Shown here in pieces: positions 1,401 to 43,318 of a DNA stretch of 64,000 nucleotides; position 1 is the first letter of the stretch, and every line of letters starts with the position of its first letter. Location: the NCBI RefSeq assembly GCF_044704955.1, contig NC_092001.1:19778001-19842000 (forward strand), in the 5' to 3' direction. The position numbers and the translations under genes were made by a program. Under the pieces are notes generated by a model that was not told the DNA's origin, made no database searches, and saw only the letters and a program-made list of their open reading frames with translations. The DNA comes from Pristiophorus japonicus (taxonomy: Eukaryota).

Positions 1401-2330
1401 TCAATGGTGGAGATTTGGAGGCGTGGCCTATTCAGTTGGAGCTCTGTTGCTGTGAGGGAAGGAGCTACCCGCTTTGCTCCTGCCTGGCAGGCGTAGAGTG
1501 AACCCTGAGACCAGCCCAGGAAGTGGAGGAAGCAGCTGGATTTCTACAATTCAACGTCCAGAGGCAGAGGAGGAGAGCAGAAAATGTTTCAACTTATAAC
1601 TACCACAGAGAGTTGGAGAGAGGGGGAAAAGAACAACAACCTGAGAAAACACCATCCAGTGTGGAAGGAGGGAGAGCCACTTCTACACTCTTCACAGGTG
1701 GGTGTGTTTTGGATCATTTCCCGAAAGACTTTGTTGTATCGGTGGGGGAAGGAAAGAAGATAACTCGAGGGCCGGAACATCGCGGGGGGTGTGTGTCTGT
1801 GGAACTGTGTGTGGGGGTCGTGCTTGCAGCTAGGCCCCACACACCACTGAAGCACCCCTCCCCCATCGCCTAGCCTGGGATAGCTGGAGCTACCTGGCTG
1901 AAGAATCATTAATTACCCTATTTAACATCGTTGGGAGTGTGTGCCTGGTGGCTCCAGCTATCCCAGGTGAAGACACCTTCTCGCCCCACCCGAAGAGCAT
2001 CTACAAAGACTGCGTTTTTTTTTGCCATTTGGGGAGTGCACCCCAAGAAACACCCACCCTTCGCTGTGAGGGGAGACCTGCCCTCGCAGCTTCCCTCTTT
2101 TCCACCACGTCTCGCTTTTTCTCTCTCTCTCTGTCTCTCGCCTCTCTCTCTGAGAGCCCTTTCCTCCTAATTTGGAAATAAGACAATTAAGACAACTGAG
2201 CAAAGGGAGCAAGGACCCTCCCCAATTTTCAACTAGGGGAGAGGTGTGCCACTTTTCGAGCTCTCTCTGATCAAACACCATTAAGGCCTGTGACTTTGGG
2301 ATGGGTGTGGCCCTGAAAAGGGACCCCGTG

Positions 2331-4378
2331 ATGGCGATCAAATCCACGCCGCTGGCAGGGCCAGCAAAGACATATGTGCAGTTGGCGTCCACATCCATGG
2401 TGCCTCCTGCGACTCCTGCTGCCCTGCCACCGTTCAGACGAATAAAAAATAAACACGGGGTCAAGAGCTACACTCACCCCACAATGAGAATTGAGGAGTG
2501 CGTGCGGGCGATAGCTGGGGTAGTCGGCCCCTCGGCCATTGTCGCAGCCTCCAAGATGTGTGGGAAGGCTGTATTCTTCCTGGCGTCGGAGCGGGCGGTG
2601 TCCCTGGCCATTGAAAAGGGGCTCACGGTGGGCGAGATGTTCCTGCCGTTGGACCCACTCGAGGCCAACGCGCACGGGGTCATCCTTTCAAACATCCCGC
2701 CCTTTCTTCCCGCTGAGCTCCTCCTCCCTCACCTGCACCAACTGGGGGAGGTAAGGTCAGGGATCAACCCCATACCGCTCGGGCTCAGGGAGATCAGCCT
2801 GCGCCATGTGTTCTCCTTCCGCCGCCAGCTCTTTGTCCGGCTGGCGTGGGAGGAGACGACAGAGGGCAATTTTAATGTGGTGCACGAGTGGACTGCCTAC
2901 CGCGTCTTCTGGACGTCGGACGGCGTTCGGTGCCAATCCTGTAGGGAGGTGGGGCACGTTTGCAAGAATTGCCCCGCCTCCAAGGCCACCAAACCACCGA
3001 AGGCGGCCAAGGCTGGCGCTGCCGCCACCCCTCCCCCTATTAGCGTCCGCTTGCCAGGAGCTGTGCGTGCGCGGGCATCGTCGGGGGCCTTTGTTTTCAC
3101 GGCCGCCGGCGGGGGGGAGGGAGTGTGTCCGATCGGATGGAAGGCGCGGAAGAAGACGAAACATCTAGAGGCGGGTACCCTCGGTACGCCAGACAATTTG
3201 TTTATCGCGCTCAGCCCAACCCCGTCACCGGCGAGCGCGGGGTGCCCTGATCCTGTGCCCGAGCCCTTGACCAATACCGCAGAGGGATTCGGGCCTGGCA
3301 AGATAAGAAAAAGGGGGGAGTGGAGTGGGAGGCCTCGGCAGACACGGAGGTCTCCCTGCCTCCGCGTTCCCCCAGGAACAAAAGTAGGCACCGCCCCAAT
3401 GAGGCGGAGGGGGAACAACATCTCTCCGTGGAGGAGTCGGTGCCCACCGCGTGTCCTGCGTCCCCCAGCATCGCCGCCAAACTGCGTCGTAGGCGGGAGG
3501 AATCTGTCCCGGGGTAGGGTGAGACAGTCGAGGCTGCCCAGCCGATGCCTCCCGGGGATGGCGTGAAAGATCTGCCTGTCGTCGGGGGCGTGGGGCCAAC
3601 GGAGGAATGCATTGCTGCCACGCCCAGCGTCCCGGCGACTGAGGCGGTTGGGGCCGAAAAGTCCGAAACTGAGCACGCCCAGCTATTAACCAACCTCCCC
3701 TAGGATTTGCTCCACCGGGCAGAAAATGAAATAATTTTAAAGATTCTATACATGCTGGGCCGGGGGGTGGCGGCGGGGAGGGGGAAGAACAACAACCCTC
3801 GCCCCCCACTTTGGAGCTGGGGTACTTGGTGGACCTGGAGAATTTATTTGGCTGTCGCTTCCTGACCCAGCACCGCATTTAAAAGAGCCCAGTTGGGACT
3901 GCTCTGCCGACGATCCTGGGGGTGGGATCGGGGCAGAGCCAGGGATGGATGGAGCGGCCGGGCCGTTTGCCGTACCTCGTGCGGTCGATGGGCCGGCTGC
4001 TGGCGGCGACCTCCCAGAGGAGGACGGGGATTCGGTGGAGGACGCGGGTGAAGATCTCGAGTCCATCGCCAGTGAGGCGGTGAATCTCCTCGTGCCCGCC
4101 GCTGAGTCCCCCCTCATTCCCGTAGAGGAACTCCGGGACTTTTTGGTCCAGATGCTGGGTCGCCACAACGGAACCCATCTGGCCCTGGAAAGATGGTCCG
4201 AGCTGGGGCTGCTCATCACATCCGTCCGCGTCGCCTCTTATACCATGGACGCGGGCGCGCCCTGATCAAAGGCGCAAGGCCTTGAGCTGCGCCGGCTCAA
4301 AAGTTTCCTCGCTGGGCTGCTGAAGAAGTGGAGGTCAACAAACGACTCCAACCCCGCCCCCCCACAATTGGGTAGGTA
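2331..4378 (+). pseudogene. Tx1 ORF1 (nucleic-acid-binding, zinc knuckle), frameshifted
   Basis: KHGVK...VGPSAIVAASKM...VILSNIPPF...HVFSFRRQ and CQSCREVGHVCKNC knuckle in ORF 2301-3566. Acidic C-terminal part (DLESIASE...IPVEELRDFL) continues in another frame at 3945-4265. Confidence 0.8.
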
Positions 4379-4400
4379 GATGTTGCACTATGCTCTAATC

Positions 4401-7400
4401 ATGAAGATAACCATAGCTAGCCTCAACATCAACGGCGGCAGAGAGGCACGCCGTAGATTTAACAATTTTTCGCTCCTGCGGGAGGGAAAATATGCGACGT
4501 GCTTCCAGCAAGAAACCCACACAGTTCCAAGAGACAAAGACACGTGGCTCCTGGAATGGCAAGGAGAGGTCAGCATGAGCCACCTCATGACCACTTCTTG
4601 TGGGGTGGCCATCTTGTTGGCCCCGCATTTTCAGCCGGAGATCTTGGGGGTCGAGGAGCCCGTCCCAGGCCGCTTGCTGCACGTAACGGTTCCCCTGGGG
4701 GACGTGCCGCTCCATATCGTGAACGTGTACGCCCCTCAGGACGGCCCGCAGCAAGCGCGATTCATCGAAGAAGTGTCCGCTCTTCTTGGCTCCGTCGACG
4801 TCGGCGACTGCATTGTCCTCGGGGGATATTTTAACTGCACCCTCGAGGTGAGGGACCGCTCCGCTGCCCCGCAGAGCATGACGGCGATGGAGAAGGTGAG
4901 GGACCTGGTCAGGTCCTTCGACTTGGTGGACGTCTGGCGAAATCTCCATTCCGACTCCAGCGCCTTTACATGGCTGAGGCCTGGAGTAGGATGGTCCAGA
5001 GTCGACCGCCTTTACGTTTCTCGTTCATACGTTTCCTGTGTCGCGGCGGCCTCCATGCGGCCGGTGCCATGTTCGGACCACCAACTGGTATGGGCGGAGC
5101 TCGCTTCGCTCCGCGCGAGGACGGGGTCCGCGTACTGGCATTTTTACAACCAGCTGCTGGAGGACGTGCGGTTCCAGGACTCGTTCCGTCGTTTCTGGGC
5201 CGACTGGAGAAGGAAGCAGGAAGGCTTCCCCTCCTTGAGGCTATGGTGGGACGTGGGCAAAGCTCAAGACCGCGTCTTCTGTCAAGAGTACGCGAGGGGG
5301 TCGACCAAGGGGCGGGCGGCCAGCGTCGGGCACCTAGTAAAAGAGGTGCTCGACCTGGAGGCCCGTCTCGGTAAAGTCATCGAGGACCCGGCCCTGCGGA
5401 CGGTGTACGAAGTGAAGAAGGCCGCGCTGAAGGACCTGCAGCTCGTCGGGTCCCGAGGAGCGTTCGTGAGGTCGCGGATCCGGTTCCTGCGTGATCTGGA
5501 CCGCGGCTCCCCCTGCTTCTACTCAATGGAAAAAACCGAGTGCCCGTCAGCAGCTTTTGATGCTGCTGGCCAACGACGGCTCTCTCATCTCGGATCCGGA
5601 GGGCGTCAACAACAGGGCCCGTGAATATTATGGGGCTCTGTTCTCTGCGGCGCCGTCCAGCAAGGAAGCACGTAGAGTTTTGTGTGAGGACTTGCCGAAG
5701 GTCGGCCCGGCGGGCGGCGAAAATCTGGAAGCTCCGCTAAGCCTGGTGGAGCTGACCGGCGCCCTCGACCGGCTCTCGAGGGGAAAAGCCCCGGGGCTGG
5801 ATGGGCTGACCGTGGAGTTCCACAGGGCGTTCTGCGACGTCCTGGGGGGCGACTACGCGCGGGTCCTGGGGGAAAGTCTGGCGACCAGGGAGATGCCCCT
5901 CTCTTGGCGCAGGGCAGTCATCGTCCTGTTGCTGAAGAAGGGTGATCTCCGCCTCCTTAAGAACTGGCGCCCGGTCTCCCTCCTCAGCACGGACTACAAA
6001 ATCTTCGCCAGGGCGATGTCTGCTCACCTTGGCACCTTGCTGGACCACATGATCCACCCCGACCAGTCCTACACGGTCCCGGGCCGGACAATCCACGATA
6101 ACATCCATCTGGTCCGGGACCTCATCCATCATTCCCAGGAGGCTGGTCTGTCGGCCGCCTTCCTATCTCTCGACCAATAGAAGGCGTTCGACTGGGTGGA
6201 TCACGACTATCTGTTCGGAACTCTGCGCGCTTTCGGGTTCGGGACGCATTTCATCGCCCGGATCCGACTTTTGTACGCTGCCGCGGAGTGTCTTGTAAAG
6301 GTTAATGGGTCCTTGATGGCGCATCTTCGCTTTGGGAGAGGGGTGCGCCAGAGATGCCCCATGTCCGCCGATTTATATGCCTTCTGCGTGGAGCCTTTCC
6401 TGCGCCTCCTGCAGGCGAGGTTGACGGGACTGGCTCTGCAAGGGCCGGGCGTGAAGGTCGTCCTCTCGGCTTAGGCCGATGACGTGCTCCTCGCGGTAGA
6501 GGATCCCGCTGACCTGTGGAGGATGTGTGAGTGCCAGGAGATTTACTCGGCCGCATCCTCCGCCAGGATCAACTGGGAGAAATGTTCCGGACTCCTGGTG
6601 GGTCAGTGGTGGGTGGACTCGCTGCGGGAGGAGCTCAGGGCTTTTGCCTGGAGCACGATCCATCTCCTCTACCTGGGAGTCTACCTTAGCCCCGACGAGG
6701 AAGCCTGGCCGGCGAACTTGCAAGAGCTGGAGGCCAAGTTCGCCGCTCGCCTAGGGCGCTGGACAGGCCCCCTCCTCGCTGGCGTGCTCTGGCGATGTTT
6801 TTCTTCCGCCAGCAGCACGGCCTCAACCATGACCCGCAGCTCCTGTTTGTGAGCTTGGGGGGCTTCAGGACCAACTTCCAGGAGCTGCCTGTATTTTACA
6901 AGGAACTCACCAGGGTCTGGAACAAAGTCTCCACCAAGCAGAGCTCTCCACCGACTGGAGTGGCGGTGTCCTGCAGGCGCCGTTGCTTGGGAATCCATAC
7001 CTCTACGACCGAGGTTTTAGGTAGCAGTCGGACAAGAGGGCTGTGGCTGGTGAGGTGACCAGGGTCAGGGACCTGCTCGATGGCGGAGGAGCGGGCTGGA
7101 TGGCGCCAGACACGCTGGCGCGGCGCCTAAATTCTGCCAACGTCCGCCGCGCGGCCGATGCCATCGAGTGGCTAAAAACAGCTCTGGTCTCTGACTCTGT
7201 TTGCTGCATCGAGGAGTCCTGTCCAGTCCGGACGGAATTCCTCATCGGCACCAAACCCCGGAACCTCCCTCGGGAGCCGGCGCCTCACAACTTGAGCCGC
7301 CTCGAGGAAATCCCTTCCGTGCCTTTCAGTTCCGCGCGGAAGGGTTTCCTGTCCGGGCTGCTCCTGCACACTCTCAAGTTTGCAATCCTCGCCTGCCAGC

Positions 7401-9059: not shown

Positions 9060-10030
9060 TTTATGGAGAGGAGACCAAAAGCTTCGTCAAAAAGTTAAGC
9101 TTTGAGGAGATTTGCAGGAGAGAGCAAGGTACAGCGGCAGAGAGGTTTATAGAGGGAATGTCATAGCTTAGCTTCTCGGCAGCTAAACGCACACCCACCA
9201 CTGGTGGGGCGATGACAATCGGGGGCGACGTCGCCAGTTTTGGAGGAATACAGAATTCGCAGAAAATGGTAGAACTCGACGAGGCTACAGTGGTAGGGAG
9301 TGGAGAGGCCACGGATGTATTCAGAAACAATGGTATGATTTTTCAAATTGAGGTTTTGCCAGAAACTGGAGACAATGTAGGTCGCCGAACACAGAGGTGA
9401 TGGGTGTAAAAGGGCTTGGTGCAAGACAAAATATAGGCAGCAGAGTTTTGAATAAAATGAAACTGAAGGAGGGTGGAAGTCGGGAGGCTGTCGTGTTCAA
9501 TATTGGAATAGCCAAGGCTCGAGGTAACGAAGGCATGGCTGAGGGTTTCAGCAGCAGATGATCTATGACGGGGCAGAGACAGGAAATATTATGAGGTAGA
9601 AGTAGTTGGTCATGTTGATGGAGAAGATATGGATTCGGAAGTGCAGCTTACGGCCAGTTATGTTGCCAGGCTTCCAAACTTTCATATTCAGGCTGCGACA
9701 ATGGTCAGGGAGAGGAATGGAAGCGGTGGTCAGGAAACGGAGTTTGTGGCAAGGTCCAAAAACAGTGTCTCCGCATTCCTATTATTTAATGCGAGGAAAA
9801 TTATGCTCATCCAGTACCAGTTAGCGGCCAGACAGCGTCACAAATCAGAGACAGCGGTTGGGTGCAGAGAGGTGGTGGTGAGATGGAGCTGGGTGTCTTC
9901 AACGTACGTGTCGGATCTGATGTAGGATGATGTCACCGAATGGCAGCATATAATTAAAGAGGAGGGTTAACAATCGGTAACAGTGAGGGAGACGAAAGAG
10001 ACGTCAATGCGGGAGATTATCTGGCTACCA
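9060..10030 (-). mobile_element. L2-type LINE fragment
   Basis: Minus strand gives YVEDTQLHL (cf. YADDTQLY), PITSVFGDLHCL (cf. ITPVL.DLHWL) and GLSTPY. Confidence 0.7.
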
Positions 10031-13836: not shown

Positions 13837-14139
13837 CTTTTGCTTTTCCCATTCGTTTTGATATCGTAGCCGATGATTGACCCTCCTGTGCTAAACACAC
13901 GTACTCTACCCCAATCTCCCACTCTTTCACACTGGATGTCAAACGGCCAATTGTTCGGTACTAATCTCCATACTTAGTTGCTGGTTTGGTCAAAATTCCT
14001 TCAGTCCTCATCTTTCCCCCCACTGTCCAAGAGATCGAAACCTCAGTGGGAACTGTAGAGAGCACTTCACACACCAAGGTGGCAGTTCTATTGATCCAAA
14101 TTTCCTCCACAGAAGTGTCTTTGAGAAACACTGCGAGCT
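13837..14139 (-). pseudogene. IgNAR: IgNAR C2 exon
   Basis: ELAVFLKDTSVEEIWINRTATLVCEVLSTVPTEVSISWTV...GD*YRTIGRLTSSVKEWEIGVEYVCLAQ...KAK/GTGGGT. Stop at 13961-13963; 73-nt intron to C3. Confidence 0.95.
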
Positions 14140-14349
14140 CTGTCAGTGAGGAACCAGAGGTTCAGAATCGGGACAATGTTTTAGCGTTGTCAATTTCGGT
14201 AGTTGAACAAGAATTTTAATTTAATTGATAATTCATTCCATGCCAAGATGTGATCATACCTCTCTCTGAGTATTATTGAACATAAAATATCATTTTGGTG
14301 TTTCCATATATGTTGAGTCACATCATAACTTTGTAAAACTGATCTAAAG

Positions 14350-14629: not shown

Positions 14630-15996
14630 GTAAAGTCTATCTGGTCCATCGAGTCTGTCCCACACAATTGCGATACATTGTGTATCATAACATATACATT
14701 CCACCCCACCAGAAAACATGTGATCTCCTGGGTGAGGAAGAGATAAAGGTAAAAAATTCAAGACAACAGAAGAAAAGCAATATGTGAAATTCCTCTCCGA
14801 CCATCTAGGCGATTTGTACTAGTGCAGGAGATAAATATGTCGTTGACTTCCCTGCCTTATGTAAGAATTGGTCCCCTCAACAGCCAGTAACAAATGCAGC
14901 CGTCGCTTGACGGAATTCAGCAATTCTGCATCCACCACATGAAACCTTGCGGCTAGTTCCATTCGGCTGCCATTCTCTGGGAAGAGAACACCTCCTGACT
15001 ACTAACCAATATCAAGCCCTACACAACTTAAATTTGTGACTCGTTTCCTGAATATCCTTTTTAATTGAAATAAACTTTCAGCTGGAATACCGCCTATTCC
15101 TTTCATTATCTTATAAACCACAATCAGAAACTACACCTCCAAATTATATGTAGCTCTAAGGTAAAGTATCGCAACTAGTTCAGCCCATATTTATAAATAC
15201 GATGTTTCTGACTTCTGCATTTTGTCCAGAGTCTCAAAATAACCAACATGTGAGAAGACCAAAAGTGGATACAGTATTCCAAGTGCGTCCTGACTAAGGT
15301 CTTGCACAAGGACAAAACATTTCACCTTGTCTTGTAATCAATTGCTCCATGGATACACTCCAACTCCCTATTTGCTCTAATTATTGTTGCAGGAATTACT
15401 CGTGTACATTTAAGGATGTAGGCACTAAAAGCACAAATGTCTTTCTCGCTCCACCATCTTAAATACCTTTCCATTCAGGTTCTATAAATTTTGAGTATTT
15501 GATCAGCTCACATGCATGATACTGCGCTTAAAAAAGTTAATTATAATTTTTCAGTGTTGAGACCAATCTCGCAACACATTAAGATCTGCGTGAAGCAGAC
15601 GAGCATCTTCTAGCACGCGCATTGATCTTGCTGTCATCTGTAATTGTGCAAATTGTGTCCCCAAACCCAAAATCCAAATCCTTAATAGAAATAGTAAAAC
15701 GCGACTTTTCCAGTACTGACCCCTGCGGGACACCACTCGTGACCACTCTGCAAACAGATCTGAATCCATCTCTCACTAATTTTAGCCATCGTCCTGCCAG
15801 ACAGTTCTGAATCGTACTCATTCCATTTCCAATTATACCAGAGCTTGCGACCTGATAGAGAAGCTTCTTATGCGGTACCTTATCCAAAGAATTTTAGAAA
15901 TCTACGCAGACAATTTCAACGGGGCTTTCCTCATCCACTAACTTTGTAATTTTTTTTAAATTTAAAAGATTTGAGAGACATAACCTTATTTTAATG
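14630..15996 (-). mobile_element. CR1 LINE (RT 3' half and 3'UTR), continuing at 17058-17150
   Basis: DKVPHKKLL, VTSGVPQGSVL, DDSK. The continuation at 17060-17150 reads GPVRDTPHSF..RSCLSNL. Confidence 0.75.
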
Positions 15997-15999
15997 GTC

Positions 16000-17040
16000 A
16001 GACTGCTGGGGCTGGTTTAATAAAATAAAGCTACAGCATTCGGAAACGTGCTGCTCACAATCTGCAAAACACTAACATGAAGACATGGGGAATCATTCAA
16101 AAGCTTCCACTCGAACTCGGAATATGTGCTGTGGGCGAGATAGGGTTCGCACACTGAACGTGTTACAGCGAATATACTAACTAACAATATACTTTAAAAA
16201 TGCAATGGACAGAAGCAGAGCTGTATCCGTAAAAGAGCCGATGAAATAATGCTGGCTGAAAGAATGGAACAGTCAGAGAAAAGAGGTGCTTCTCAAATTA
16301 CCACTGATGATGTTTTTTAAAAAGTTTGAGTGAAAACAATGATAAAACTATTTAAATCAATGAAAGAGAAAGACAGGAAATGGCGTGTTGGACAAAAACA
16401 TGTCATGGAACTCGACAACGCCTCTAAAAGCACGCATAGAATCTACGATCCTTGGCCAGGTTGAAATATGAAAAAAAGTTTTCTCTATGATAGTGGTGAT
16501 GTGAATAACAATGACAGAGGTATTAATAGCATTGCTTCACACGTTACTTTCAGCAAGAGGAGGCAAGGAATGAAATTAACCATAAAATCACCGTTGCCCA
16601 TCTCAGGGAACAAGGCTTAACGCTTGACATTCCACATTCATCCTTCCACTGGAGGGACTCAGCCATGTTAAATAGACAAGTTAATGCCTGGGCTAATGAA
16701 GCGGACAGATGTCAGTGGTTGGGCCTGTACTATCATAAGAAAAAAGTGGCAGGGATATCAGTGTTTAAACTGGAGAGTTCCAGTTGTTTGGGGAGGGAAT
16801 TCCCTGGTGGAACAATCCACATGGAGCCCTGTAATATAACCATTCGGCGTTTCTCGGCGCGCACATGATGGCTTTCTCAGAACGGCATTCCTTCCGGTAA
16901 GTGACGAGTTCTGTGTCTGCGAGGAAGCCCAAACCCCCAGCAAAGTTTCCAGCCCAATCTATACCTCACCGCCCCTTTCAAAGTCAGTGTTCTGCGATGT
17001 TGCTGCCTTTCACATTGTCGGTGTTTTACGCCAGGTTCAT
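16000..17040. repeat. ~1-kb segment, copy 2 (C1-C2 intron), homologous to 21170-22200
   Basis: Collinear shared blocks such as gctcacaatctgcaaa, tgatagtggtgatgt, gcttaacgcttgacattcca and gttgtttggggagggaattccctggtggaacaa. Confidence 0.85.
16795..16804. promoter_or_regulatory. NF-kB consensus palindrome GGGAATTCCC (copy 2)
   Basis: Perfect GGGRNNYYCC match, identical in both duplicated copies; function not shown. Confidence 0.4.
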
Positions 17041-18026
17041 TCCCAGGTGAGAACCAGCTTTGCAATTTTGTCAAAAAATTAAATAGATTTGAGAGACATG
17101 ACCTTATTATTATGAAGGAATGAGGGGTGTCCCTAACAGGTCCTTTCCTACATGTAAATATATACACAGAGATAGAGAGAGAGTTGGAGTGACAGAGAAA
17201 GGAATGAATTCTACAAAGTAGATGGTCCTTCGGTCTATGGCTGAGTATCTCGACTCGTTTTTTTTTCCTGGCCCTTACCCATGCCTTTTTGGAAACAGAA
17301 GGGCAGCTCATTGTTGAATGGTTTTGTGATCGTACCAGTCAGATTAATCTAATGACAGCTTTCTCTCACTGTCTATCTCCAACTCTGACTGTTATTTCTT
17401 TCTCGGTCCCTCTCTCATCCATTTCATTTCTGTACGGATATCCTGTATCGCATACAATGCACCCTCCAACGTTTAACGAGTAACAGAAACAAACTGATAC
17501 GGTTTGTTCCTCCTTGTCCAAGGTAGGCTATGTGTTTTGCCTGAATGTGATTTGGGGAAATAATTATATAGACTGTTTCATAATTCTGTATAAATTGTTT
17601 GTAATTTCATTAAAGTTTACGATCGATGTGTTTGTTGACCATAGCATACTGTTAATGTACGTGTTAACACATCAAAAAATACCCTTTGTATCCTCCGCTG
17701 CATAGAGAACACCTTCACGTACCTCAACATAAAATGCTAGAATGATACCGCACTGATGGAAGACATTCGGTCCATCGTGCCTGTGCTGGTTATTTGAAAG
17801 AACACCTTCAGTTACCTCCGCCATTGCGTCTAAAACATTCCAAACTAGCTTTAATGTAGTATTGCACTGTGCAATAAATTCTCACCGATCTTACTAAGGT
17901 CCCGTTTAGGGATGTTTGATCCTCATCGATAAATGATCACAATAACTTCCCACCTGATTCAATACTGGTAAAGGAATTGAGAATGTTTCACCTATACAGC
18001 CGTGTGAATTGGTTACATTGGCTCAC

Positions 18027-18348
18027 CTGATGTTGATCGAATTTCTTTCCGCTGGTTACTTTTGGTTGGCGGGTGGGAGGCATGACAGCTGTACAGGGAA
18101 CCGCTGGCACATTCCTGCAGGGGAACCTTTAAGGAGGCTCGTGGAGCTAAAGACTCCGTTGGAATTCTTAGCTTGTGATGAGGTGGTAAAGCCAGACTGT
18201 AATGCGTTTCCGTTCTTTTCTCAGCTTATTGCAATGCTTTTTGGCTGGTATTCGCTGACGAGGCAGACCAGTTGCACAAAACCCTTTGCTCTCAGTTCGT
18301 CAGTTGCAGAGTGGAGGAGACTGCTGATTGGTGGAGTAGGTTGCACTG
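18027..18348 (-). pseudogene. IgNAR: IgNAR C1 exon
   Basis: AVQPTPPISSLLHSATDELRAKGFVQLVCLVSEYQPKSIAIS*EKNG...SGFTTS...STSLLK/VPLQECASGSLYSCHASH...NQRKEIRSTS/GTGAG. The conserved Trp is TGA (18221-18223) and there is a +1 frameshift. Confidence 0.95.
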
Positions 18349-18429
18349 CTAAAATTGCAAAGAATGACTTACTCTCTCTCTCTATATAATGACGGATAGA
18401 CAGCTTCTCACACTGGACAATATTATCCT

Positions 18430-18620
18430 TCAATCAATATATAAAACAGATGATCTGTTCATTATCACTTTGTTGTTTGTAGGACCTTGCTGTGCACAAA
18501 TTGGGTGGCAGTTTTCCTCCGTTAGAAAAGTGACTGCACTTCAAAAAATACTTAATTGGCTGTAACTGGCTTTGGAGCATCCCTAGGACATAAACGCGCT
18601 ATATATATGCAAGTCTTTCT
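18430..18620 (+). mobile_element. Deu-domain SINE 3' part (similar pieces at ~25890-26030 and ~28760-28860)
   Basis: ggaccttgctgtgcacaaattg...gtgactgcacttcaaaa..tacttaattggctgtaa...gcgctatatatatgcaagtctttctt. Confidence 0.6.
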
Positions 18621-18889
18621 TATTTTTTATATTTTATGTCTGTGGTTAATTACCGTTTATTTTACTTCACTTAACGGTGCTTTGAAATTTGACGCCAGCT
18701 TTAATATATATTTACTAAATGGCCGATAATAATTTGTTTGTTTCGCAGCCAATCGCTCGGAAGAATTTAACACATGTGGATGACATATCATAGAGACGTT
18801 ATAAAATTAACTGCGTAATAAATGTCACTGATCCGTTCACATTCACAAATATATTATTGATTTTTGAGTAACAGTTTGGTGAAACTTAT

Positions 18890-19960
18890 AAGAACACAAG
18901 ATTAAAGGAACATAAGGCATAGGTGCATGAGTGGGGCATAAGACCCTGTAGCCCGCTCCACCATTCAATATCATAGTTGATCATCAACCTCAACTCCACT
19001 TTCCCGTCCGATATCCCCTCGACTCTAAAAATCTACGTATCTCAGCCTTGAATATATTCAGAGACGCAGCATCCACATTCGTCTCGGGTCCAGAATTCCA
19101 AAGATTCACTTCCCTCTGTGTGAAGCAATTCCTCCTCGAATCTCTCTTAAATGGCCTCCCGCTTGCACTGAGACAGTGCCCCCGAGTTCGAGACACTCCA
19201 GCTCGAGGCACGAATCTCTCACCAGTTATCCTGTCAATCCTTGTAATAATATTGCACGTTTCGATAAGGTCAGTTCTCAGTCTTCTAAACTACAGAAAGT
19301 ACAGGCCCGTTCGAGACAATTCCTCTTCATTTGATAATACTCTCAACCCAGGAATCAATCTAATGAACATATATTGCACCACCTCCAAGGCATCTATACC
19401 CTTCTTTAGATAAGGAGATCAAAACACCACACATTACTCCATGTATGCTCTCACTTAGGCATTGTACAATTTCAGCAAGACTTCCTTACTCTGATGCTGC
19501 ATCCCCTTACAATAAAGGGCAAGATGCCATTTGCCTTCATTATTGCTTGTTCTGCCTGCTTGCTAGCGTTCTGTGTTTCTTGCACAAAGACACACATAAC
19601 TCTCTTAACACCAACTTTTAAAGATTTCTCAGCATCAAAAAATTGTTTTGTTATTCTTCCTACCAAATTGAAAAACGTCACATTTCCCCACGCACTGATT
19701 CTATCTGTATCCCTTTGCAGAAGGTTTGTGTTCTCACATCTAACTGTTCGACTTAGCTTTGAATCCTCTGAAAACTTAGATATATTACACTCAGTCTCTT
19801 CATCTAGGTCATTAATATAGATTGTAATTAGTTGAGGCCCAAGCACTGACCTTGTGGCACCCCACTAGTTATAGTCTGACGAGCTGAAAAATAACCCGTC
19901 TATCCCTAATCTCTATTTTTGGTCCGTTAACGAATCCTCTATTCTTGCTAGTACACAAAC
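18890..19960 (-). mobile_element. CR1 LINE 3' fragment
   Basis: LGPQLITIYINDLDEETECNISKFSEDSK; SRTRGHCL...RRNCFTQREVNLWNS. Confidence 0.85.
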
Positions 19961-20019
19961 TCCAATGCAAATAGATAATCTAGATTAAGCTTATCAAAAG
20001 GCATCATAACTTTCTGCCC

Positions 20020-20740
20020 CTTAGTTGTTTCTCATGAAAAGAGACCGTATTTCGCTTTGTTCCCGAACTACCGAAACCTTCCTCCTCTTTGACCACAGTC
20101 TGAGGTTGAACCAGGCTGTTCGTAACCTTCACCTCCCACATAACTTTGGGCTGAGTTTCCGACACCATATCCTCGCCATCTCCAAGTGCGCCTACTTCCA
20201 CCACCATTACATTGCCCGATTCCGCCCCACCTCAGCCCATCTGCTGCTGAAACCCTCACCCCTGCCTTTGTTATCTCTCGACTCGACCATTGCAAAATTC
20301 TGCTGGGCGGCCGCCCATTACTTCACTCCATAAAGTTGAGTTGATGCAAAATTCTGCTGTCCATACCTTAACACACACCAAGTCCCGTGCACCCACCACC
20401 ACTGTTCGCGCGGACCAAAATGGCTCCCAGTTGAGCAACACTTCCAATTTAAAGTTCTTATACTTGTGATATCTCTATCAGTTCCGAAAACCCTTAAGTC
20501 ATTTGAGATAGTTGCACTGTTCAAATTCTGGCCTCTTGTACAATCCCGATTTCCATCGCTCCACCACTGGATGCCACGCCTTCGGCTACCTGAGCCCTAA
20601 GCTGCACAATTTGCTCCGTAAACCTTTACACCACTCTTCTGCCTATTCTCCTTTAAGACACTCCGTAAATCCAACCTATTTTCAAGATTTCGGTCACCCG
20701 CACCCCAATTTAAGTTAAAGTTGCGATATAAATGCAAGTC
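20020..20740 (+). mobile_element. L2 LINE 3' fragment
   Basis: LRLNQAVRNL...LSFRHHI; HAFGYLSPKLHNLL; gcgatataaatgcaagt tail. Confidence 0.7.
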
Positions 20741-21169
20741 ATTCTGGCTGACTTGATGAATGTGTTTGTATCTTTAACGTTGCTGAATAATTTGTGTTAT
20801 ATTCGAGAATAATTTCAACTGTACGGCGCAGAAACTAAATTCGGGCTTACAACCATTGTAGGTAATACAAATTGTGGAGCTTTGGGGAGCGGATCGGTGA
20901 AAAATGATTGTGCAAATTTGTTCAAAACCAGTTCAACGGGTAAAGCGCGGATCTGTTTGAGCCTGTTGCAAGTGATGAAGAAATAAATTATGGAGCAAAA
21001 TTTGCCTTTCTGCATTTCAAGCACAGATCAGGAAAACATATCAGGAAATGGTACAATCCTAGCGCTAGCATTATCAATGGACTGAGAACGAGGTGCTGGG
21101 TGTGCATTGTTTCCCGTCCGTTTCAAAGAAAGACAGCGAGATACAGAGCAGAGTGGTTTGGTGGGAGTT

Positions 21170-22200
21170 CAGAATGTTGGGGCTGGTTTTATAAAATCAG
21201 GCATCAACAGTCTGGAATGTGCTGCTCGCAATCTGCAAACCACTTAAATGAAGAAATGGAGAATCATTGCTCAGCTTTCTCCCGAATTCACTAAATGTAT
21301 CTGTGGGCCAGAGGGCTTTCGTTTCATGAACGTGTTACATTGAATATACATAACACCACATATACTTTAAAAATGCAAGGGCCAAACAGAGACAGGGCTG
21401 GTGCTGTGTGCATGCAAGAGCCGACAAAATAATGGTAGCTGATAAAATGGAACAGCCATAGAAGCTAGGTGAATCACATATTACCACTGATGACATTGTA
21501 CAAAATCTTGAGTGAAACATGAAACATGGAAAGAGGAATTCATGAAATAGCGAATTCGAAGCAAACAAGTCATTTAGCTCAGCAACGATGATAAATGCAA
21601 GCATTGAATTCACAATCCTTGGCCAAGTTGAATGATGATACAAAATGATTTCTCAATGATAGTGGTGATGTAAATACCATTGACAGAGGCATTAATAGCA
21701 TAGCTTCACTCGTTGTGTTCAGTAAGTGGAGGCAAGGAAGGAAATTAATCCTAAAATCACCATTGCCCATCTGAGGGAACCAAGCTTAACGCTTGACATT
21801 CCAAAGTCACTGTTCCACGAGAGGGGCTAAGCCATGTTAAATGGACAATGTAACGTCTGGACGACTGCACTGGGAAGTGTAAAGTAGTTGGCCCTTTAAT
21901 ATCACTACAGAAAGGTGGCAGTTTTAGCGATGTTTACACGGGGAGTTGTTTGGGGAGGGAATTCCCTGGTGGAACAAACCATATTGAACCGCGTAATAGA
22001 TTCAATCTGCATTTTTCGGCGCGCATTTCCTGATGTCTTTCGAACGGGGATCCTTTTGATTAGGGACATCTTCTGTCTCTGAGAAGAAAACCTAAACAGC
22101 TGCAATGTTTCTCGTCCAGTCTGCATCTCAATACCCACTTCAAAGACAGCGTTCTGCTTATGTTGCTGACTGCCATATTTTGGGAATTTAAGCCAGGCAT
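21170..22200. repeat. ~1-kb segment, copy 1 (J-C1 intron); candidate intronic enhancer region
   Basis: Homologous to 16000-17040; contains GGGAATTCCC at 21957-21966 and tttcggcgcgca. Confidence 0.8.
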
Positions 22201-23094
22201 GGGCGCAGGTCAGGGAGCACAATGCTGAACTGACCTGTCAACCGTTATGATTCGCGTGTACTTTCTCCTCGGGACATAGTGTGGAGCAGCTTGAACTGAC
22301 CTGGAAGTGTTTGGTGGGTTGGTGTAGATCCAATTTAACGTTGTTTCACGCGATGCGATTTTCAAGGTACTTATTGTAGCAGACTTGCTAACGCTTGCTA
22401 CTCGTGTTTGTGGGCTCCTTCCATTATTGACTGCTTCACAGAGAAAAATGTAGTCTTTGACGCGCTGTTTATATTTTGCTATATTTTACTTAATTTATTT
22501 GAAGAAGCAATCTGTTTATTTAGAATCTGCGTATTGGTCTGTTTGACAGTACATTCAGTCAGTATTTCAACGAGAGGAAAGTCCCAAAACTGCTGTGCAG
22601 ATTATAGATTTGTTGTTGCCATCCCATGGTCTGGGTACCGCTTGCCTGGAGATTGGATTAGGTAATATTTGTTACAGCGGAACTGGTTCAATCTTACACA
22701 AAAAAACCATTTGTTAACACAAATATGGTTGTCTCTGTAAAAAGTCTTCCACAGAATAACAGCTCTGTCACTGAAGTGTGCGCCGTTAATCCAGATCCAC
22801 AAATGACAAGACTCAAGGGACAGCATATTTGCACGTCTGTGCTGATAATAATTTAGCAGTTATTGTTTTATATAATTCAAATAATATACGAAATAAAATG
22901 TTGCATTCAATCCATGTCTGCAATAAACATTTATCAACCCAGAAATATATTTCATCTTCGAATTAGAAATACTGCATATCAGGTTTATACTGGGATATAT
23001 CAGTCGGGAGTACTTTCAACTGGTCGGATCCGTTTTTACTATTTAAACTATTACAATCTTTTTGGATAAACATCTTAAATGCTCAATGCGGTCT

Positions 23095-23550: not shown

Positions 23551-23745
23551 TATTATTGGTAAAAATCTCCATTGAAAAAGATTTTAAGTTTTTGCCAAAT
23601 AAGCTGACAGCGAACTTAGCCAAGGCAGCAAACGAGCTTCAGATATTGGGTTATGCATTTCAGACCATTTTAACCAGAACACTTTTCCTTGATATCCTCC
23701 ATGAACAAAACCTTAGCAGTAAAAGTAACAAGATCGGGCACTTAC

Positions 23746-23793
23746 CAGCTTTCACAGTCAGCGTGGTGCCAGCTCCGTACTCATCCTACTAGC
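23746..23793 (-). pseudogene. IgNAR: IgNAR J segment
   Basis: **DEYGAGTTLTVKA G/GTAAGT. The GxG motif is intact, but two in-frame TAG codons lie at the 5' end. Confidence 0.93.
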
Positions 23794-23832
23794 CACAGTA
23801 AGTCAGCTCCTAGTCAGCGCAGGTAAAAAAGC
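23794..23832 (-). other. J recombination signal sequence (23-bp spacer)
   Basis: GCTTTTTTA - 23 nt - TACTGTG immediately 5' of J. Confidence 0.75.
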
Positions 23833-24132
23833 GTCATTGAAGCAAAGGTCCGATAATACGTATACCAAAACAACTAGGCTCAAAGGAACTTGCTGAAAAA
23901 TTAGAGTCAGTCATACATTTCAATTTCGGCCAATTTCAATCTATGTCGAGATATATTATGTGCAGTGCGAAATCCTGTAAGAGTGAAGAATAAAATCCAT
24001 CTGGGAATTCGGATATATTTAAACCAAATGACGGATTGGAATTGATTACTAACTTTATGCAGTAACAACCTTTAATAAGAAGCACATTGTACAGCCACCG
24101 TCACGAGTAGGAAACCAGATAACTGTTGGTGA

Positions 24133-24200
24133 GGTTTGTGCTATGGGCCGAGTCACTGTGCCACCCCATAGACACATAATTTCACATCAGCACAAGAACT
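24133..24200 (-). other. IgNAR: J-proximal D segment (24161-24172, TCTATGGGGTGG) with 12/12 RSSs
   Basis: Plus strand: GGTTTGTGC-12-CACTGTG [D] CACATAA-12-ACAAGAACT. Confidence 0.85.
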
Positions 24201-24550
24201 CCATTGTTGCAAACATCACAGAAATTCCTTCATATTCCAACATATTGATTGAAAGTTGCAGTAAATATGGTTCAAATCATTGCTTTATATTGGGTTCTCT
24301 ATAAAGAGTTATATTTAACAGCCGCTCATAAAGATCCTCGAAAGAATTCATTGTGCACTACGATTATGATTTAACATTTAGACAAAAATCACATAACTGA
24401 AAAGAGAAAACACTTTAAAGATATAATCTAGTGTCTGACACAGGCAATGTGTATTTAATCAGGACGTTATTAGCCACCGTGAGAATAACCTGTATTAATA
24501 TTCTATTAAGTCGTGTGGGGACAGCTTATTTATTGCGAGGATACTACATT

Positions 24551-24595
24551 CAATGTATAACCACTCGCACAGTGACAGAGAGCAGTACAAAAAGG
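24551..24595 (-). other. IgNAR: V-proximal D segment (~24558-24567, CGAGTGGTTA) with intact 5' 12-RSS and damaged 3' RSS
   Basis: Plus strand: CACAGTG-12-ACAAAAAGG at 24568-24595. The other heptamer reads TACATTG on the minus strand, with no nonamer at 22-23 nt. Confidence 0.75.
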
Positions 24596-24784
24596 TCCAC
24601 TGCGCATTAATACAAGAGCCTCAGACCGGGACAAATACTGCGATCCAGATTCCTGCCTCAATACATCTTGCGAGATATTTTCTTGTAAGAAAGAATTTTA
24701 TTTTTCCAAAATATTGAGTGTCTGCACTTCATGATCAAGCAACAGGTAAATATTGATCTTGTTCGTAAAACAAAGTGAGCTGAC

Positions 24785-24823
24785 AATTTGTATATTGCAG
24801 GGACCTTCTCCTCCAATGCTGTG
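24785..24823 (-). other. V recombination signal sequence (23-bp spacer)
   Basis: CACAGCA - 23 nt - ATACAAATT. Confidence 0.75.
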
Positions 24824-25097
24824 GGATCATAAGCGTTGCAGATGTACGTGGCACTGTCTTCAACTTTCAGGTTAGTGTTTCGCATAGAAAATGTTTTTGC
24901 TCTGCTGTTGACTGCTTCAACATGTCGTCCGCGAATCGACATCAGCTCCTTGTTTGATGAACTCGGATTTTTCCGGTAGCAGCACGTGCTACCCAAAGCA
25001 TAGCTGGTATCAGATCGGACACAGTTGATGGTCATGGATTCGTCTGTCTTTTTCGTTGCCGTTCTTGGTGTTTGGTCTATTATCCTACCAGAGGCAC
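24824..25097 (-). pseudogene. IgNAR: VNAR variable exon
   Basis: ASGRIIDQTPRTATKKTDESMTINCVRSDTSYALGSTCCYRKNPSSSNKELMSIRGRHVEAVNSRAKTFSMRNTNLKVEDSATYICNAYD. It has the short VNAR layout (no CDR2) and an open frame, but the acceptor reads CAT and the core Trp is Cys. Confidence 0.95.
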
Positions 25098-25171
25098 ATG
25101 AATGGAGAAAATATATTTAATGCATCGCGTATCTCAACAGAAAAAGAGTTTTAAGCCGGGACAGTTTCTAC

Positions 25172-36060: not shown

Positions 36061-39000
36061 GGGTCTGGTTCAGACTGGGACAGCGGGTGATTAGGGAGGG
36101 TCTGGTTCAGACTGTGACGGGGGCTGATTAGAGATGGTCTGGTTCAGACTGTGGCAGGGGACTGATTAGCAAGTTTCGGGTTCTGAAAACGACAGGGGCT
36201 GATTCGGGAGTTTCTGATTCAGACAGGGACGGGAGTGATTAGGGTGTTTCTGATTCCGACTTGAACAGGGACTGATTTGCGAGTTTCCGGTTCAGTCTGA
36301 GACAAGGACTGATTAGATAAAGGTCTCGTTTAGTCTGGGAAAGGGACGAATAAGGGAGATTCTGTTTCAGACTGGTACAGGGACTGATTAGGAAGGGTCA
36401 GGTTCAGTCTGGGAAATGGAACGCTGAAGGAGTTTCTGGTTCAGACTGGGACAGGGAAAAATAGTGAGGCTCTGGTTCAGACAGGGCTAGGGATTGATTG
36501 GGGAGTTTCTGGTTCAGACTGGGACCGGGGCTTATTAAGGAGTTCATGGTTCTGTCTTGGACAGAGAATGATTAGGGAGGGTCTGTTTCAGACTGTGAAA
36601 GTGTCTGATTAGGGAGTTTCTGGTTCAGACTGGGGCAGATACTGATTAGGGAGGGTCTGGTTCAGTCTGGGACAGGGACTGATTAGAAAGTTTCTCATTC
36701 AGTCTGGGAGAGGAACAGATTAGGGAGGGTCTGGTTCAGACTGAGACGGGGAAAGATTAGGGAGCGTCTGGTTCAGACATGGAAAGGCAGTGATTAGGCA
36801 GTTTCTGGTTCATTCGGGGATAGGTACAGATTAGGGCGTTTCTGATTCAGCCTGGGACAGGTAATGATTATGCAGTTTCTGGTTCAGACTGAGATAGTGT
36901 TTGATTAGGCAGGGTCTGGTTCACTCGGGAAAGGGACTGATTAGGGAGTTTCAGGATCAGTTTGGGACAGAGATTGATTAGGGAGTTTCTGGTTCAGTTT
37001 GGGACAGGGACAGATTATGGAGTTTCTGGTTCAGTCGAGAACATGGATTGATTAGGGGTTTTCTGGTTCAATCTGTGTCAGGAACGTATTCGGGAGTTCC
37101 TGATTCAGTCTGGGACAGGGACTGATTAGGGTGTTTCTGCTTGAGACAGGTACAGATATTGATTATGGTGTTTCGGGTTCAGTCTGGGACAGGGACTAAT
37201 TCGGGAGTTTCTGGTTCAGACTCAAACAGGAACTGATTAGGAATCGTCTGGTTCAGACTCAGACAGGAACTCATTAGGAAAGGTCTGGTTCAGACTGGGG
37301 CAGGGCTGATTCGTGAGTTTATGGTTTAGCTTGGGACAGGGTCTGATTAAGGATTTTCTGGCTCAGTCTGGGACAGGGACTGATTAGGGATCTTCTGGTT
37401 CAGTATGTGATAGGAACTGATAAGGGAGGGTCGACTTCAGATTGAGACACGGAATGATTATGGAGTTTTTTTTTCAGTCTAGGAAAGGACTGATTAGGAA
37501 TGTTTTGCTTCACTCTGGGACAGTGATTGAGTAGGGGGTTTTGAGTTCAGACAGCGACAGTTGCTGATTAAGTAGTTTCTGTTTCAGTGTGTGAGAGGAA
37601 CTGATTCGGGAATTTCTGGTTCAGTCTGTGACAGGAACTGATTAGGGAATTTCTTGTTCCGTCTGGGACATGGACTGAATTGGGAATTTCTGGTTCAGTC
37701 TGTGACAGGAACTGATTCGGAATTTCCTGATTCAGTCTGGGACAGGGACCGATTAGGGTGTTTCTGCTTCAGAGAGGGACAGATACTGATTCGGGTGTTT
37801 CGGGTTCAGTCTGGAACAGGGACTGATTCCGGAGTTTCTGGGTCACACTGCGACAGGAACGGATTAGGGAGTTTCTGGTACAGTCTGGGACAGGGACTGA
37901 TTGTGATCTTTCTGTTTCAGACTGGAAGAGGTAATGGTTGGGGAGTTTCTGTTTCAGACTGGGGCAGGTACGAATTAGAGCGTTTCTGCATCAGACTCGG
38001 AAAGCGACTGATGTGTGAGTTTCGGGTTCAGACTGTGACTACGACTGATTAGGGAGTTTCTGGTTCAGAATTGGAGAGGTACTGATTAAGGTTTTCTTGG
38101 CTCAGACGAGGACAGGGACCGATTCGGGAGGTTCTGGTTCAGGCTGGGACAGGAAGCGATGAGGTAGTTACTGGTTCAGTCTGGGACAAGAGCTGATTAG
38201 TGAGTCTCCGGTTCAGACTGGGATGGAGACTCATTAGTGAGGGTCCGGTTCAATTTGGGGCATGGAAACATAGAAACATAGATTCATATAAAATAGTTGC
38301 AGGTGTAGGCCATTCGGTCCTTCGAGCCTGCACCACCATTAAATAAGATCATGGCTGATCATTCACCTCAGTATCCCTTTCCTGCTTTCTCTCCATATCC
38401 CTTGATCCCCTTATATATAAGGGCAATATGTAAGTCACTCTTGAATATATCCAATGAACTGACATCAACAACTCTGTGCGGCAGGGAATTCCACAGGTTC
38501 ACCACTCTCTGAGTGAAGAAGTTTCGTCTCATCTCGGTCCTAAATGGCCTACCACTTATACTAAGACTGTGTCCCCTGATTATGGGCTTCCCCAACATCG
38601 GCAACACTCTACCCGCATGTAACCTATCCTGTAACCGTCAGAATCGTAAATGTTTCTATGAGATTGGGACAGGGTCTGATTAGGGAGGTTCTCGTTCAGT
38701 CTGGGACAGGGGCTGATTTGGGAGTATCATTTTCAGACTTGGAAAGGGAATGATTAAGGAATCTCTGGTTCTGACTGGGACAGGTGCTGATTCGGGAGGG
38801 TCTGGTTCACTCTGGGATGGGGACTAATTATGGAGTTTTTGGTTCATTCTAGGAGATGTACTGAATAGGGAGTATCTGGTTCAGTCAAGGATAGGGACTG
38901 ATTCGGGATTTTTTGGTTCAGTCTGGGATAAGGACTGATTATGCAGTTTCGAGTTCAGACTGCGACATGGTCTTATTAGGGAGGGTCTGGTTCACTCTGG

Positions 39001-40810
39001 GATAGGGACTAATTGTGGAGCTTCTGGTTCAGACTCGGATATTTAATGAATAGGGAATATCTGGTTCAGTCTGGGATAGTGACTGATTCGGGAGTTTCTG
39101 GTTCAGACTGGAAGAGGGACTGATTAGGACGTTTCTTGTTCAGATTGGAAAAGTGACTGTTTCGCGAGTTTCTGGTTCAGATTGTTTAGAGGGATTGATT
39201 AAGGTCTTCCTGGCTTTGTCTAGGACAGGGACCGATTATGGAGTTTCAGGTTCAGACTGGGACAGGGACTGATTCGGATGTTTCTGGTTCAGACTGGGAC
39301 CGGGACTGATTCGGGAGTTTCTGGTTCCGATTGGGAAAGACACTGATTATGGCTTTTCTAGTTCAGATTGGGACAGGGACTGATTGGGAGTTTACAGTTT
39401 CAGAATGGGATAGGGAGTGATTAGTGATTTTCTGGTTCAGACTGGAAGAGGGACTGATTCGGGCCTTTTTGGTTTAGAATGGGAAAGGGACTGGTTAGGG
39501 TGTTTCTGGTTCAGATTGCAAGAGGGATTGATAAGGGCGTTCCTGGCTAAGACTAGGACAGGGACCGATTAGCGCGATTCTGGTTCAGACTGGGACAGGG
39601 ACTGATTAGGGAATTTCTGGTTCAGACTGGGACAGGGACTTATTAGGGAGTTACTGGTTCAGACTGGGACAGCGACTGATTAGGGAGTTTCTGGTTCAGA
39701 ATGGGCGAGGGACTGATTTGGGAGTTTCTGTTTCAGTCTTGGAGAGGATAGATTAGGAATGTTCTGGTTCAGACTGGAACAGGTACTGATTAGGGATCTT
39801 TTGGTTCAGAATGGGATAGGGTCTGATTAGTGAGTTACTGGTTCAGACTGGGAGTGCGACTTATTAGGAAATTTCTGGTTGAGACTTGGAATGCGACAGA
39901 TTAGGGAGTTTCTGGTTCAAACTGAGACAGGGACTGATTAGCGAGTTTCTGGTTTAGACTGGGACAGGGTCTGATTAGGGAGTTCCTGGTGCAGTCTGTG
40001 GTAGGAACTGATTCGGGAGTTTCTTGTTCAAATTGGGAGAGTGACTGAGTCGGGAGTTTCTGCTTCAGCCTGGTTTAGACCTGGACGGTGGCTGGGGCAG
40101 TAGGTTTGGTTCAGTCCAAATCTGTCTGGTACAGGGGCTGGCGGGGACGGGTCTGGGTCATTCTGGTTCAGACTGGACAGTGAAATGTGAGGGAGGTCTG
40201 GGTCAGTCTTATTCTGCATTGGTCAGTGGACTGTGAGGATGTGTCTCGTTCAGTCTATTTGAGGATGGTACAGGGGCTGGTGATTGAGGGTTTGCCTCAG
40301 TGTGGTTCAGACTGCGACAGGAGAGGGTGAGGGATGGTTTGGGTCAGTCCTTTTCAGACTGGGACAGATGATGGTGATGGAAGTTTAGTTCCGTCTGGTG
40401 CATACTGTGACAGTGCCTGGTTAGGGGGTCTATTTCACTCTGTTGGAGACTGTGACTGTAGATGGTGAGAGCATCTGGTTCAGTCTGATTCAGTCTGGTA
40501 CATGCGCTCGTGAGGCAGTGTCTGTTTCAGTCTGCTACGGAATGGGACAGGGGCTAGTGGGGAAAATGTTGCTTCAGCATTGTACAGGGACGAGTGAGCG
40601 GATCTGGTTCCGTCTGCTTTACCCTGAAACAGAGACTGGTGAGAGTATCTGAATTAATCTGCGACAGAACTGGTGAAGGCGGGTCTGTGTCAATCTGGTT
40701 CAGACTGGGACAGGGGATGGTGAGTGAAGGTGTGGTTCAGTCTGCACAGGGACTGGTGAGGGAAGGTCGGACAGGAGACCGTGATTGAGGTTCTGGTTGA
40801 GTCTCGTTCA
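36061..40810. repeat. 37-bp tandem minisatellite (roughly 95-100 units) grading into a ~47-bp variant after ~40080
   Basis: Consensus TCTGGTTCAGACTGGGACAGGGACTGATTAGGGAGTT. Confidence 0.95.
38265..38663 (-). mobile_element. CR1 3' fragment inserted in the 37-bp array
   Basis: IRGHSLSISGRPFRTEMRRNFFTQRVVNLWNSLP; aaacatagaaacatag tail. Confidence 0.9.
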
Positions 40811-43255: not shown

Positions 43256-43318
43256 GAAGATGAGATTGGAACTCTCTTTTGGACTGTCTGCTCAAAAGAC
43301 TGAAGCTGACACCACACT

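What the first reader, a model, noticed from the sequence alone, without database searches (positions are those of the whole stretch)
15942..22200. ~1-kb J-C1 intron segment with an NF-kB palindrome copied into the C1-C2 intron, flanked by a ~55-bp direct repeat
Seen: 21170-22200 and 16000-17040 are collinear but visibly diverged. A block of ~33 nt (gttgtttggggagggaattccctggtggaacaa) containing GGGAATTCCC is identical in both, and gcttaacgcttgacattcca and ttt(ct)cggcgcgca are also retained. Copy 2 interrupts a CR1 and is bracketed by duplicated CR1 sequence (15942-15996 and 17058-17114), so it is an insertion. Known: Ig intronic enhancers lie in the J-C intron, and the mammalian kappa one uses an NF-kB site. 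Inference: this may be an IgNAR intronic enhancer that was duplicated, or an unannotated mobile element carrying an NF-kB site. The long flanking duplication suggests template-switch or repair copying rather than ordinary TPRT.
Basis: partly seen in the sequence, partly recalled or inferred. Interest (0 to 1): 0.7.

Follow-up and report, generated by a model that had tools for sequence, protein, structure and literature searches.

The report
Copied shark antibody-gene intron segment
A 1-kb piece of a shark single-chain antibody (IgNAR) gene's first intron was copied into the next intron, likely once and by DNA-repair copying; it is not a jumping element and mostly decays like ordinary intron DNA, though a 52-base cluster of B-cell-type binding sites inside it remains an untested enhancer candidate.

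Summary
In detail: 15997-17052 is a 73%-identical direct copy of 21168-22214, inside an IgNAR pseudogene, between two ~61-nt repeats. Only 5 copies were found in the 5.9-Gb genome, all in IgNAR clusters. Two clusters carry the insert; two others show the empty site with one repeat, so it is a target duplication. The donor is old intron DNA whose homology runs through both ends, so it is no mobile element. Best reading: a one-off local templated insertion. The enhancer idea is weak but open. The segment diverges at intron rate; the 33-nt block is not significantly conserved in copies not used to pick it (6 changes, 9.2 expected, P 0.19); the intact, transcribed cluster lacks the insert and has the palindrome broken; an intact joined cluster and 5 of 5 IgM J-C regions lack the block. 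Yet the ancestral segment holds a kB/E-box/kB/E-box cluster in 52 nt, its best-kept window, and every copy keeps one kB site. The scan had not noted this sequence before; it noted similar local copies elsewhere in this genome.

The parts
15997..17052 (.). E2: inserted direct copy (1056 nt) of J-C1 intron DNA, in the C1-C2 intron
   Evidence: orthologue in cluster B at C2090:655.64-656.70k; absent from A and D
15937..15996 (.). left copy of the target duplication (60 nt, LINE-like DNA)
   Evidence: one 63-nt copy at the empty site in cluster A
17053..17114 (.). right copy of the target duplication (62 nt)
   Evidence: 49 of 62 columns match the left copy
21168..22214 (.). E1: donor segment, old J-C1 intron DNA; inferred ancestral ends both AGGTCAGA
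   Evidence: homology runs through its left end in D and its right end in A, B, C
16772..16823 (.). kB-type site / E-box / kB palindrome (16795-16804) / E-box cluster in E2; first site degraded in this copy
21945..21977 (.). 33-nt block in E1 with the kB palindrome (21957-21966); the second kB site and both E-boxes are lost in this copy
14690..15996 (-). decayed LINE (CR1-like, label recalled) that hosts the insertion; continues right of the insert
   Evidence: translation motifs; continuous across the empty site in A and D
18030..18350 (-). IgNAR C1 exon (broken), between the two copies; limits approximate
13850..14170 (-). IgNAR C2 exon (in-frame stop); limits approximate
23740..25100 (-). 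IgNAR V-D-D-J region, unrearranged, without leader

Best explanation
About 1.06 kb of ordinary IgNAR J-C1 intron DNA was copied, likely in one germline repair or replication template switch, into a decayed LINE 5 kb away in the C1-C2 intron, re-copying about 61 nt of the target, and both copies have since likely drifted with little or no constraint. Shown: the copy, the target duplication, the empty sites, the low copy number, intron-rate divergence. Inferred: synthesis left the LINE, ran along the donor in the same orientation and returned about 61 nt upstream of where it left; this happened once, in the common ancestor of this cluster (W) and cluster B, after cluster D and probably cluster A had split off; the insert is a passenger that IgNAR expression does not need.
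For: 5 matches of 5 candidates in 5.9 Gb, all in IgNAR clusters, while the same search on the neighbouring intron piece returns 50 matches and on a LINE tail 9505 candidates. Empty site with a single repeat in A (C2090:228855-228917) and D (C11:26645738). Donor homology crosses both ends. No poly(A) tract and no terminal inverted repeat seen at the junctions, at most 1 nt of microhomology (read by eye). No Pfam hit above a family cut-off in 12 frames, no Rfam match. W-B identity: E2 78.7%, E1 78.3%, flanking introns 82-84%; A-B: E1 90.7%, neighbouring intron 89.7%. In the three copies not used to choose them, the 33-nt block has 6 changes against 9.2 expected (P 0.19), the palindrome 1 against 2.8 (P 0.24), the 20-nt block 5 against 5.5. 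Cluster A is intact and unrearranged, lacks E2, has GCGAATTCCC, and one run holds a spliced C2-C3 contig and a V contig that differ from A at 1 of 318, 1 of 204 and 1 of 226 nt against 19, 6 and 35 for B.
Against: The kB window is the best-kept window of the segment in 5 copies (10 changes in 50 columns against 27.8; permutation P 0.006-0.057 for windows of 23-80 nt), though P is 0.03-0.62 with four more independent copies. All 5 copies keep at least one consensus kB site; the only two E-boxes shared by 3 or more copies lie in the same 52 nt; outside E, close kB pairs occurred only in one minisatellite in 524 kb. Junctions lack the microhomology usual for template switches. The donor begins and ends with the same 7-mer, which random segments do at 0.0025 (exact) or 0.057 (one mismatch); the model does not explain this. 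Expression of A rests on one run of unrecorded type and low depth.
Confidence: 0.62

Rival explanations
1. Same origin, but the segment carries a real IgNAR intronic enhancer: a 52-nt kB/E-box/kB/E-box module about 1.8 kb downstream of J, with redundant kB sites; cluster B gained a second copy.
For: Position in the J-C intron; best-kept window; motif cluster; intact clusters keep 3-4 of the 4 motifs per copy while E1 of the pseudogene keeps 1, and W's exons show relaxed selection (pN/pS 0.60 against 0.22 in A). Ig enhancers can keep motifs while spacers drift, and Ig-kappa Ei has a kB site with E-boxes (PMC3972084, passages).
Against: No significant conservation after correcting for the choice of block. 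Palindrome broken in the transcribed cluster A. Intact joined cluster C keeps only about 220 nt around the donor's right end, without the block. No consensus kB site between J and the first detected C exon in 5 of 5 IgM regions with a J, and no profile hit to E. No shared octamer, MEF2, IRF or RUNX site. B's exons are as relaxed as W's (pN/pS 0.61, few changes).
Confidence: 0.28
2. Two simple steps instead of one: a tandem duplication of about 6.3 kb (target repeat to donor end, with C1), then a deletion of about 5.1 kb that removed the extra C1 exon, leaving repeat-E2-repeat.
For: Gives the same two junctions, needs no microhomology, and explains the long 'target duplication' as a leftover; removal of a duplicate exon could be selected (inference from the layout).
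Against: Needs two events within the short stem shared by W and B (0.048 substitutions per site on the E2 stem); no intermediate among 7 IgNAR loci.
Confidence: 0.22
3. RNA-templated insertion: an excised intron of an antisense transcript (the insert reads GT...AG on the + strand, with splice-like ends) was reverse-transcribed into a staggered break.
For: Insert starts at GT of AG|GTCAGA and ends just past TTCTCAG|GTCAGA; would account for the non-random ends.
Against: Landed 5 kb from its source in the same orientation; no poly(A); 1-6 extra bases past the AG; no antisense transcript is shown by any search.
Confidence: 0.07
4. An unannotated mobile element carrying a kB site, inserted twice.
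For: Direct 8-nt repeat at the donor ends resembles a target duplication.
Against: Five copies only; the 8-mers were copied along, which transposases do not do; homology crosses the donor ends in C and D; the 6 non-IgNAR hits of a 25-nt pattern share only 22-36 nt with E in the 4 of 5 fetched that align, and those 4 are LINE tails.
Confidence: 0.03

Closest known systems
'Cycle' of templated insertion / local copy-and-paste rearrangement (PMC7025897; passages and section 9 read)
   Same: A copied template inserted with return to the host chromosome and re-replication of a host segment; source close to the break, copy number gained.
   Different: Germline, old (about 0.35 substitutions per site between the window copies), one template, direct orientation, no clear microhomology, ends fall on an 8-nt direct repeat.
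Mammalian Ig-kappa intronic enhancer and related Ig enhancers / DIVAC elements (PMC3972084; passages)
   Same: J-C intron position; kB site with nearby E-boxes.
   Different: Heavy-chain-type locus; two E-boxes, not five; no shared PU.1-IRF, MEF2 or octamer site; motifs not uniformly kept; no activity measured.
Shark LINE 3' tails (L2- and CR1-like; labels recalled)
   Same: An about 20-nt stretch around the palindrome resembles the L2 tail and a kB-like site inside a CR1-like tail in an IgM intron.
   Different: Unbiased profiles give 1.4 bits or less against a 99th-percentile null of 1.6-1.9 and no CR1-tail hit: origin from a LINE is not shown.

Membership tests
Local templated insertion ('cycle') | Inserted segment is a copy; source stays in place | tested here: met
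   E1 intact in W and B beside E2
Local templated insertion ('cycle') | Return to host with a re-replicated host segment | tested here: met
   60/62-nt repeats; one 63-nt copy at the empty site
Local templated insertion ('cycle') | Both junctions made in one event | not testable with these tools
   Two-step duplication plus deletion gives the same product
Local templated insertion ('cycle') | Microhomology at junctions (MMBIR type) | tested here: not met
   0-1 nt at reconstructed junctions
Transposable element | Dispersed copies | tested here: not met
   5 of 5 hits in IgNAR clusters; copies below about 70% or short can be missed (D's 200-nt piece was)
Transposable element | Discrete ends (TIR, LTR, poly(A)) and an empty site for the donor | tested here: not met
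   Homology crosses both donor ends; junctions
Transposable element | Coding remnants | tested here: not met
   No Pfam family above cut-off in 12 frames
Ig intronic enhancer (kappa Ei type) | Lies in the J-C intron | tested here: met
Ig intronic enhancer (kappa Ei type) | kB site clustered with E-boxes | tested here: met
   two kB-type sites and two E-boxes in 52 nt
Ig intronic enhancer (kappa Ei type) | Motifs conserved beyond neutral expectation | tested here: inconclusive
   P 0.006-0.057, 0.03-0.62, 0.19-0.24 after correction
Ig intronic enhancer (kappa Ei type) | Present and intact in functional clusters | tested here: inconclusive
   B keeps all; transcribed A has the palindrome broken but keeps the other three motifs; intact joined C lacks the block
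Ig intronic enhancer (kappa Ei type) | Conserved across species | not testable with these tools
   No relatives of this genome are held
Ig intronic enhancer (kappa Ei type) | B-cell-specific activity, open chromatin | not testable with these tools
   needs reporter and chromatin data

The most novel reading that the evidence does not exclude
The 52-nt kB/E-box/kB/E-box module is the intronic enhancer of this shark's IgNAR genes: a kappa-Ei-like switch in a heavy-chain-only locus, with redundant kB sites, duplicated by repair copying so that cluster B carries two; it would be a first sequence-defined shark IgH-type enhancer with a natural series of alleles (4, 3, 1 and 0 motifs) to test.
Probability: 0.25. 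Interest if true: 0.62.

Novelty: new member of a known kind. Interest (0 to 1): 0.3.

Why it matters
As a rearrangement it is a clean, datable germline example of a known process, with empty-site controls, and it shows a side effect: the insert appears to shield about 1.8 kb from gene conversion between two IgNAR clusters. If the 52-nt module is an enhancer, it would give a handle on how single shark Ig clusters are switched on, which PMC2435157 (passages) discusses only as a model; three searches listed no paper describing a shark IgH or IgNAR intronic enhancer, but the library lacks most subscription journals. As things stand it is mostly ordinary genome turnover.

Tried and rejected
LINE-tail origin of the kB block: the first profile (E 2e-4) was circular because seeded from pattern-selected loci; unbiased L2 profiles were within or at the edge of the null and CR1-tail profiles gave nothing. 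Loss of E2 from A by recombination between the repeats: considered because A and B are sisters in most blocks and A's single repeat shares one site with the left copies; disfavoured because around the insert A groups with D (86% and 93% support; informative sites 26 WB|AD, 16 WA|BD, 10 AB|WD), but not excluded. RAG cleavage: heptamer-like words lie near both donor ends but no matching nonamer (read by eye); not supported. Hidden exon, protein or structured RNA: none. Control introns in the window-permutation test also gave low P values (near the C1 and C5 exons, and in the C4-C3 intron where C has a gap), so that test is not specific. No RNA holder listed for the C2-C3 query; run X1 gave no cover on cluster C's exons and none on most of A's E1: no evidence either way. 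IgW J-C introns were not reached (no J in the fetched stretches). Literature searches on conversion near insertions and on shark switching gave nothing usable. Supplementary figures of PMC3972084 were seen only as legends.
Full report
Observation. The two stretches are collinear direct copies, 73.3% over 1058 columns. They lie in a minus-strand IgNAR cluster (here W): V about 25100-24780, J near 23779, C1 about 18350-18030, C2-C5 14170-10780 (isotype named from recalled domain sequences). W is a pseudogene: stops or frameshifts in C1-C5, no leader, pN/pS 0.60 (57 N, 29 S). Refined limits: insert E2 15997-17052; repeats 15937-15996 and 17053-17114; donor E1 21168-22214.

Relatives in the genome. 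A DNA search with E1 returned 5 matches from 5 candidates: two here, three on contig C2090. Searches with C1, C5 and the J-side intron gave seven IgNAR loci in all, a lower bound. A (C2090:223-236k): all exons open, unrearranged with leader and signals; E1 only, its first 107 nt deleted. B (C2090:647-664k): exons open, V-D and D-J joined; E1 and E2. C (C23): exons open, V-D-J joined; only about 220 nt around E1's right end (E 1e-17). D (C11): broken; first 200 nt of E1. F (C18; V, J, C4, C5) and G (C2167; V-J only): no E. E2 is thus in 2 of 7 loci, and the kB block in 5 copies in 3 of 7.

It is an insertion. A and D align to both window flanks through a single copy of the repeat: the repeat is a target duplication of about 61 nt. 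Its two window copies are 79% alike, in keeping with one old event. E1 is the source: D aligns through its left end, A, B and C through its right end. That and the copy number exclude a mobile element; the search does see dispersed repeats (50 matches next door; 9505 candidates for a LINE tail), though it missed D's 68%, 200-nt piece. A 25-nt pattern found the 5 copies and 6 other places (controls 0); 5 of the 6 were fetched, 4 are LINE tails sharing 22-36 nt with E and 1 did not align.

History. A and B are about 90-92% alike in most blocks and sisters in trees, but 80-83% in the C1-C2 intron, where A groups with D. In 300-nt steps A-B identity falls from about 0.90 to 0.77-0.85 over about 1.8 kb around the insertion point while A-W and B-W stay level; informative sites there are 26 WB|AD, 16 WA|BD, 10 AB|WD, against 60 AB|WD, 19 and 10 in two other blocks. 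I infer gene conversion between A and B that the insert blocks locally, and a single insertion in the W+B ancestor. Early loss from A is not excluded.

Mechanism. The product is repeat-E2-repeat, direct orientation, source 5.17 kb away, 0-1 nt microhomology, no tail. This matches the 'cycle' of templated insertion, which returns to the host and re-replicates a host segment (PMC7025897, passages and section 9). A tandem duplication followed by deletion gives the same sequence and cannot be told apart here. One oddity is unexplained: the inferred donor begins and ends with AGGTCAGA; random segments share a terminal 7-mer at 0.0025, or 0.057 with one mismatch.

Is it an enhancer? Against. Whole-segment identity is no higher than flanking introns (W-B 78-79% against 82-84%; A-B 90.7% against 89.7%). 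A has GCGAATTCCC and no E2, yet one run holds a contig joining C2 to C3 and a V contig, each within 1 nt of A and 6-35 nt from B (one run, type not on record, depth 5-11). C lacks the block. In 5 of 6 IgM regions fetched a J was found, and none of the 5 has a consensus kB site between J and the first detected C exon; no profile hit to E in any of 9 regions.

For. The kB window is the best-kept one in five copies (P 0.057, 0.035, 0.006, 0.029 for 23, 33, 50, 80 nt), weakening to 0.03-0.62 with four copies, and it is not the best window among the three E1 copies alone. The ancestral segment has kB (16772), E-box (16781), kB (16795), E-box (16818) in 52 nt; these are the only kB sites and E-boxes shared by 3 or more copies (one shared E-box is itself no more than shuffles give, 0.47). 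B E1 keeps 4 motifs; A E1, B E2 and W E2 keep 3; W E1 keeps 1. Background is 0.11 kB sites per kb, with close pairs only in one minisatellite in 524 kb. Known Ig enhancers can keep motifs while spacers drift, and kappa Ei pairs a kB site with E-boxes (PMC3972084, passages). No octamer, MEF2, IRF or RUNX site is shared. I put the enhancer at about 1 in 4.

Papers. PMC7025897: passages and section 9. PMC3972084 and PMC2435157: passages. PMC2193156: abstract and outline only (germline joining in sharks). Searches for a described shark IgH or IgNAR intronic enhancer listed none; coverage is limited. Earlier notes of this scan describe similar local copies into LINEs in this genome (unchecked); a look-up by sequence found nothing.

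Verdict. Real, well resolved, a new member of a known kind. Not a transposon. Enhancer role unproven and more likely absent than present. Interest 0.3.

Noticed in passing
G000:C2090:227960-229810 (cluster A) vs cluster B: A-B identity dips from about 90% to 77-85% around the insertion point: likely a gene-conversion shadow cast by the insert.
   Followed up: partly
G000:C2090:647300-648900 (cluster B): IgNAR with V fused to the first D and the second D fused to J in the germline, exons open: one rearrangement left.
   Followed up: partly
G000:C23:64658226-64675700 (cluster C): Fully germline-joined IgNAR V-D-J with open C1-C5 and a short (1.6-kb) J-C1 intron holding one consensus kB site of its own.
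   Followed up: partly
L042 about 9100-9450 (A), and B, C, F promoters: An octamer word lies upstream of the leader in A, B and C, with one change in F; W and G lack this region.
   Followed up: no
G000:C2167:12614000-12619700: V-D-D-J-only copy that shares W's promoter and leader deletion.
   Followed up: no
window 2271-6177: Long frames resembling a Tx1-type non-LTR retrotransposon (gag-like, endonuclease, RT; label recalled), broken by frameshifts.
   Followed up: no
window 36061-46073, 50500-55020: Large diverged tandem arrays (37-nt and 67-nt type units) upstream of V.
   Followed up: no
G000:C23:26309501-26329500 (L075-L076), about base 17310 of the joined stretch: kB-like palindrome inside a CR1-like tail in an IgM C-C intron, sharing about 18 nt with the E block; present in 2 of 6 IgM regions.
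   Followed up: partly
L020:7448-7795 region (C11:26.63 Mb): The DNA beside cluster D has at least 17 copies at 91-93% on many contigs: a multi-copy segmental family.
   Followed up: no
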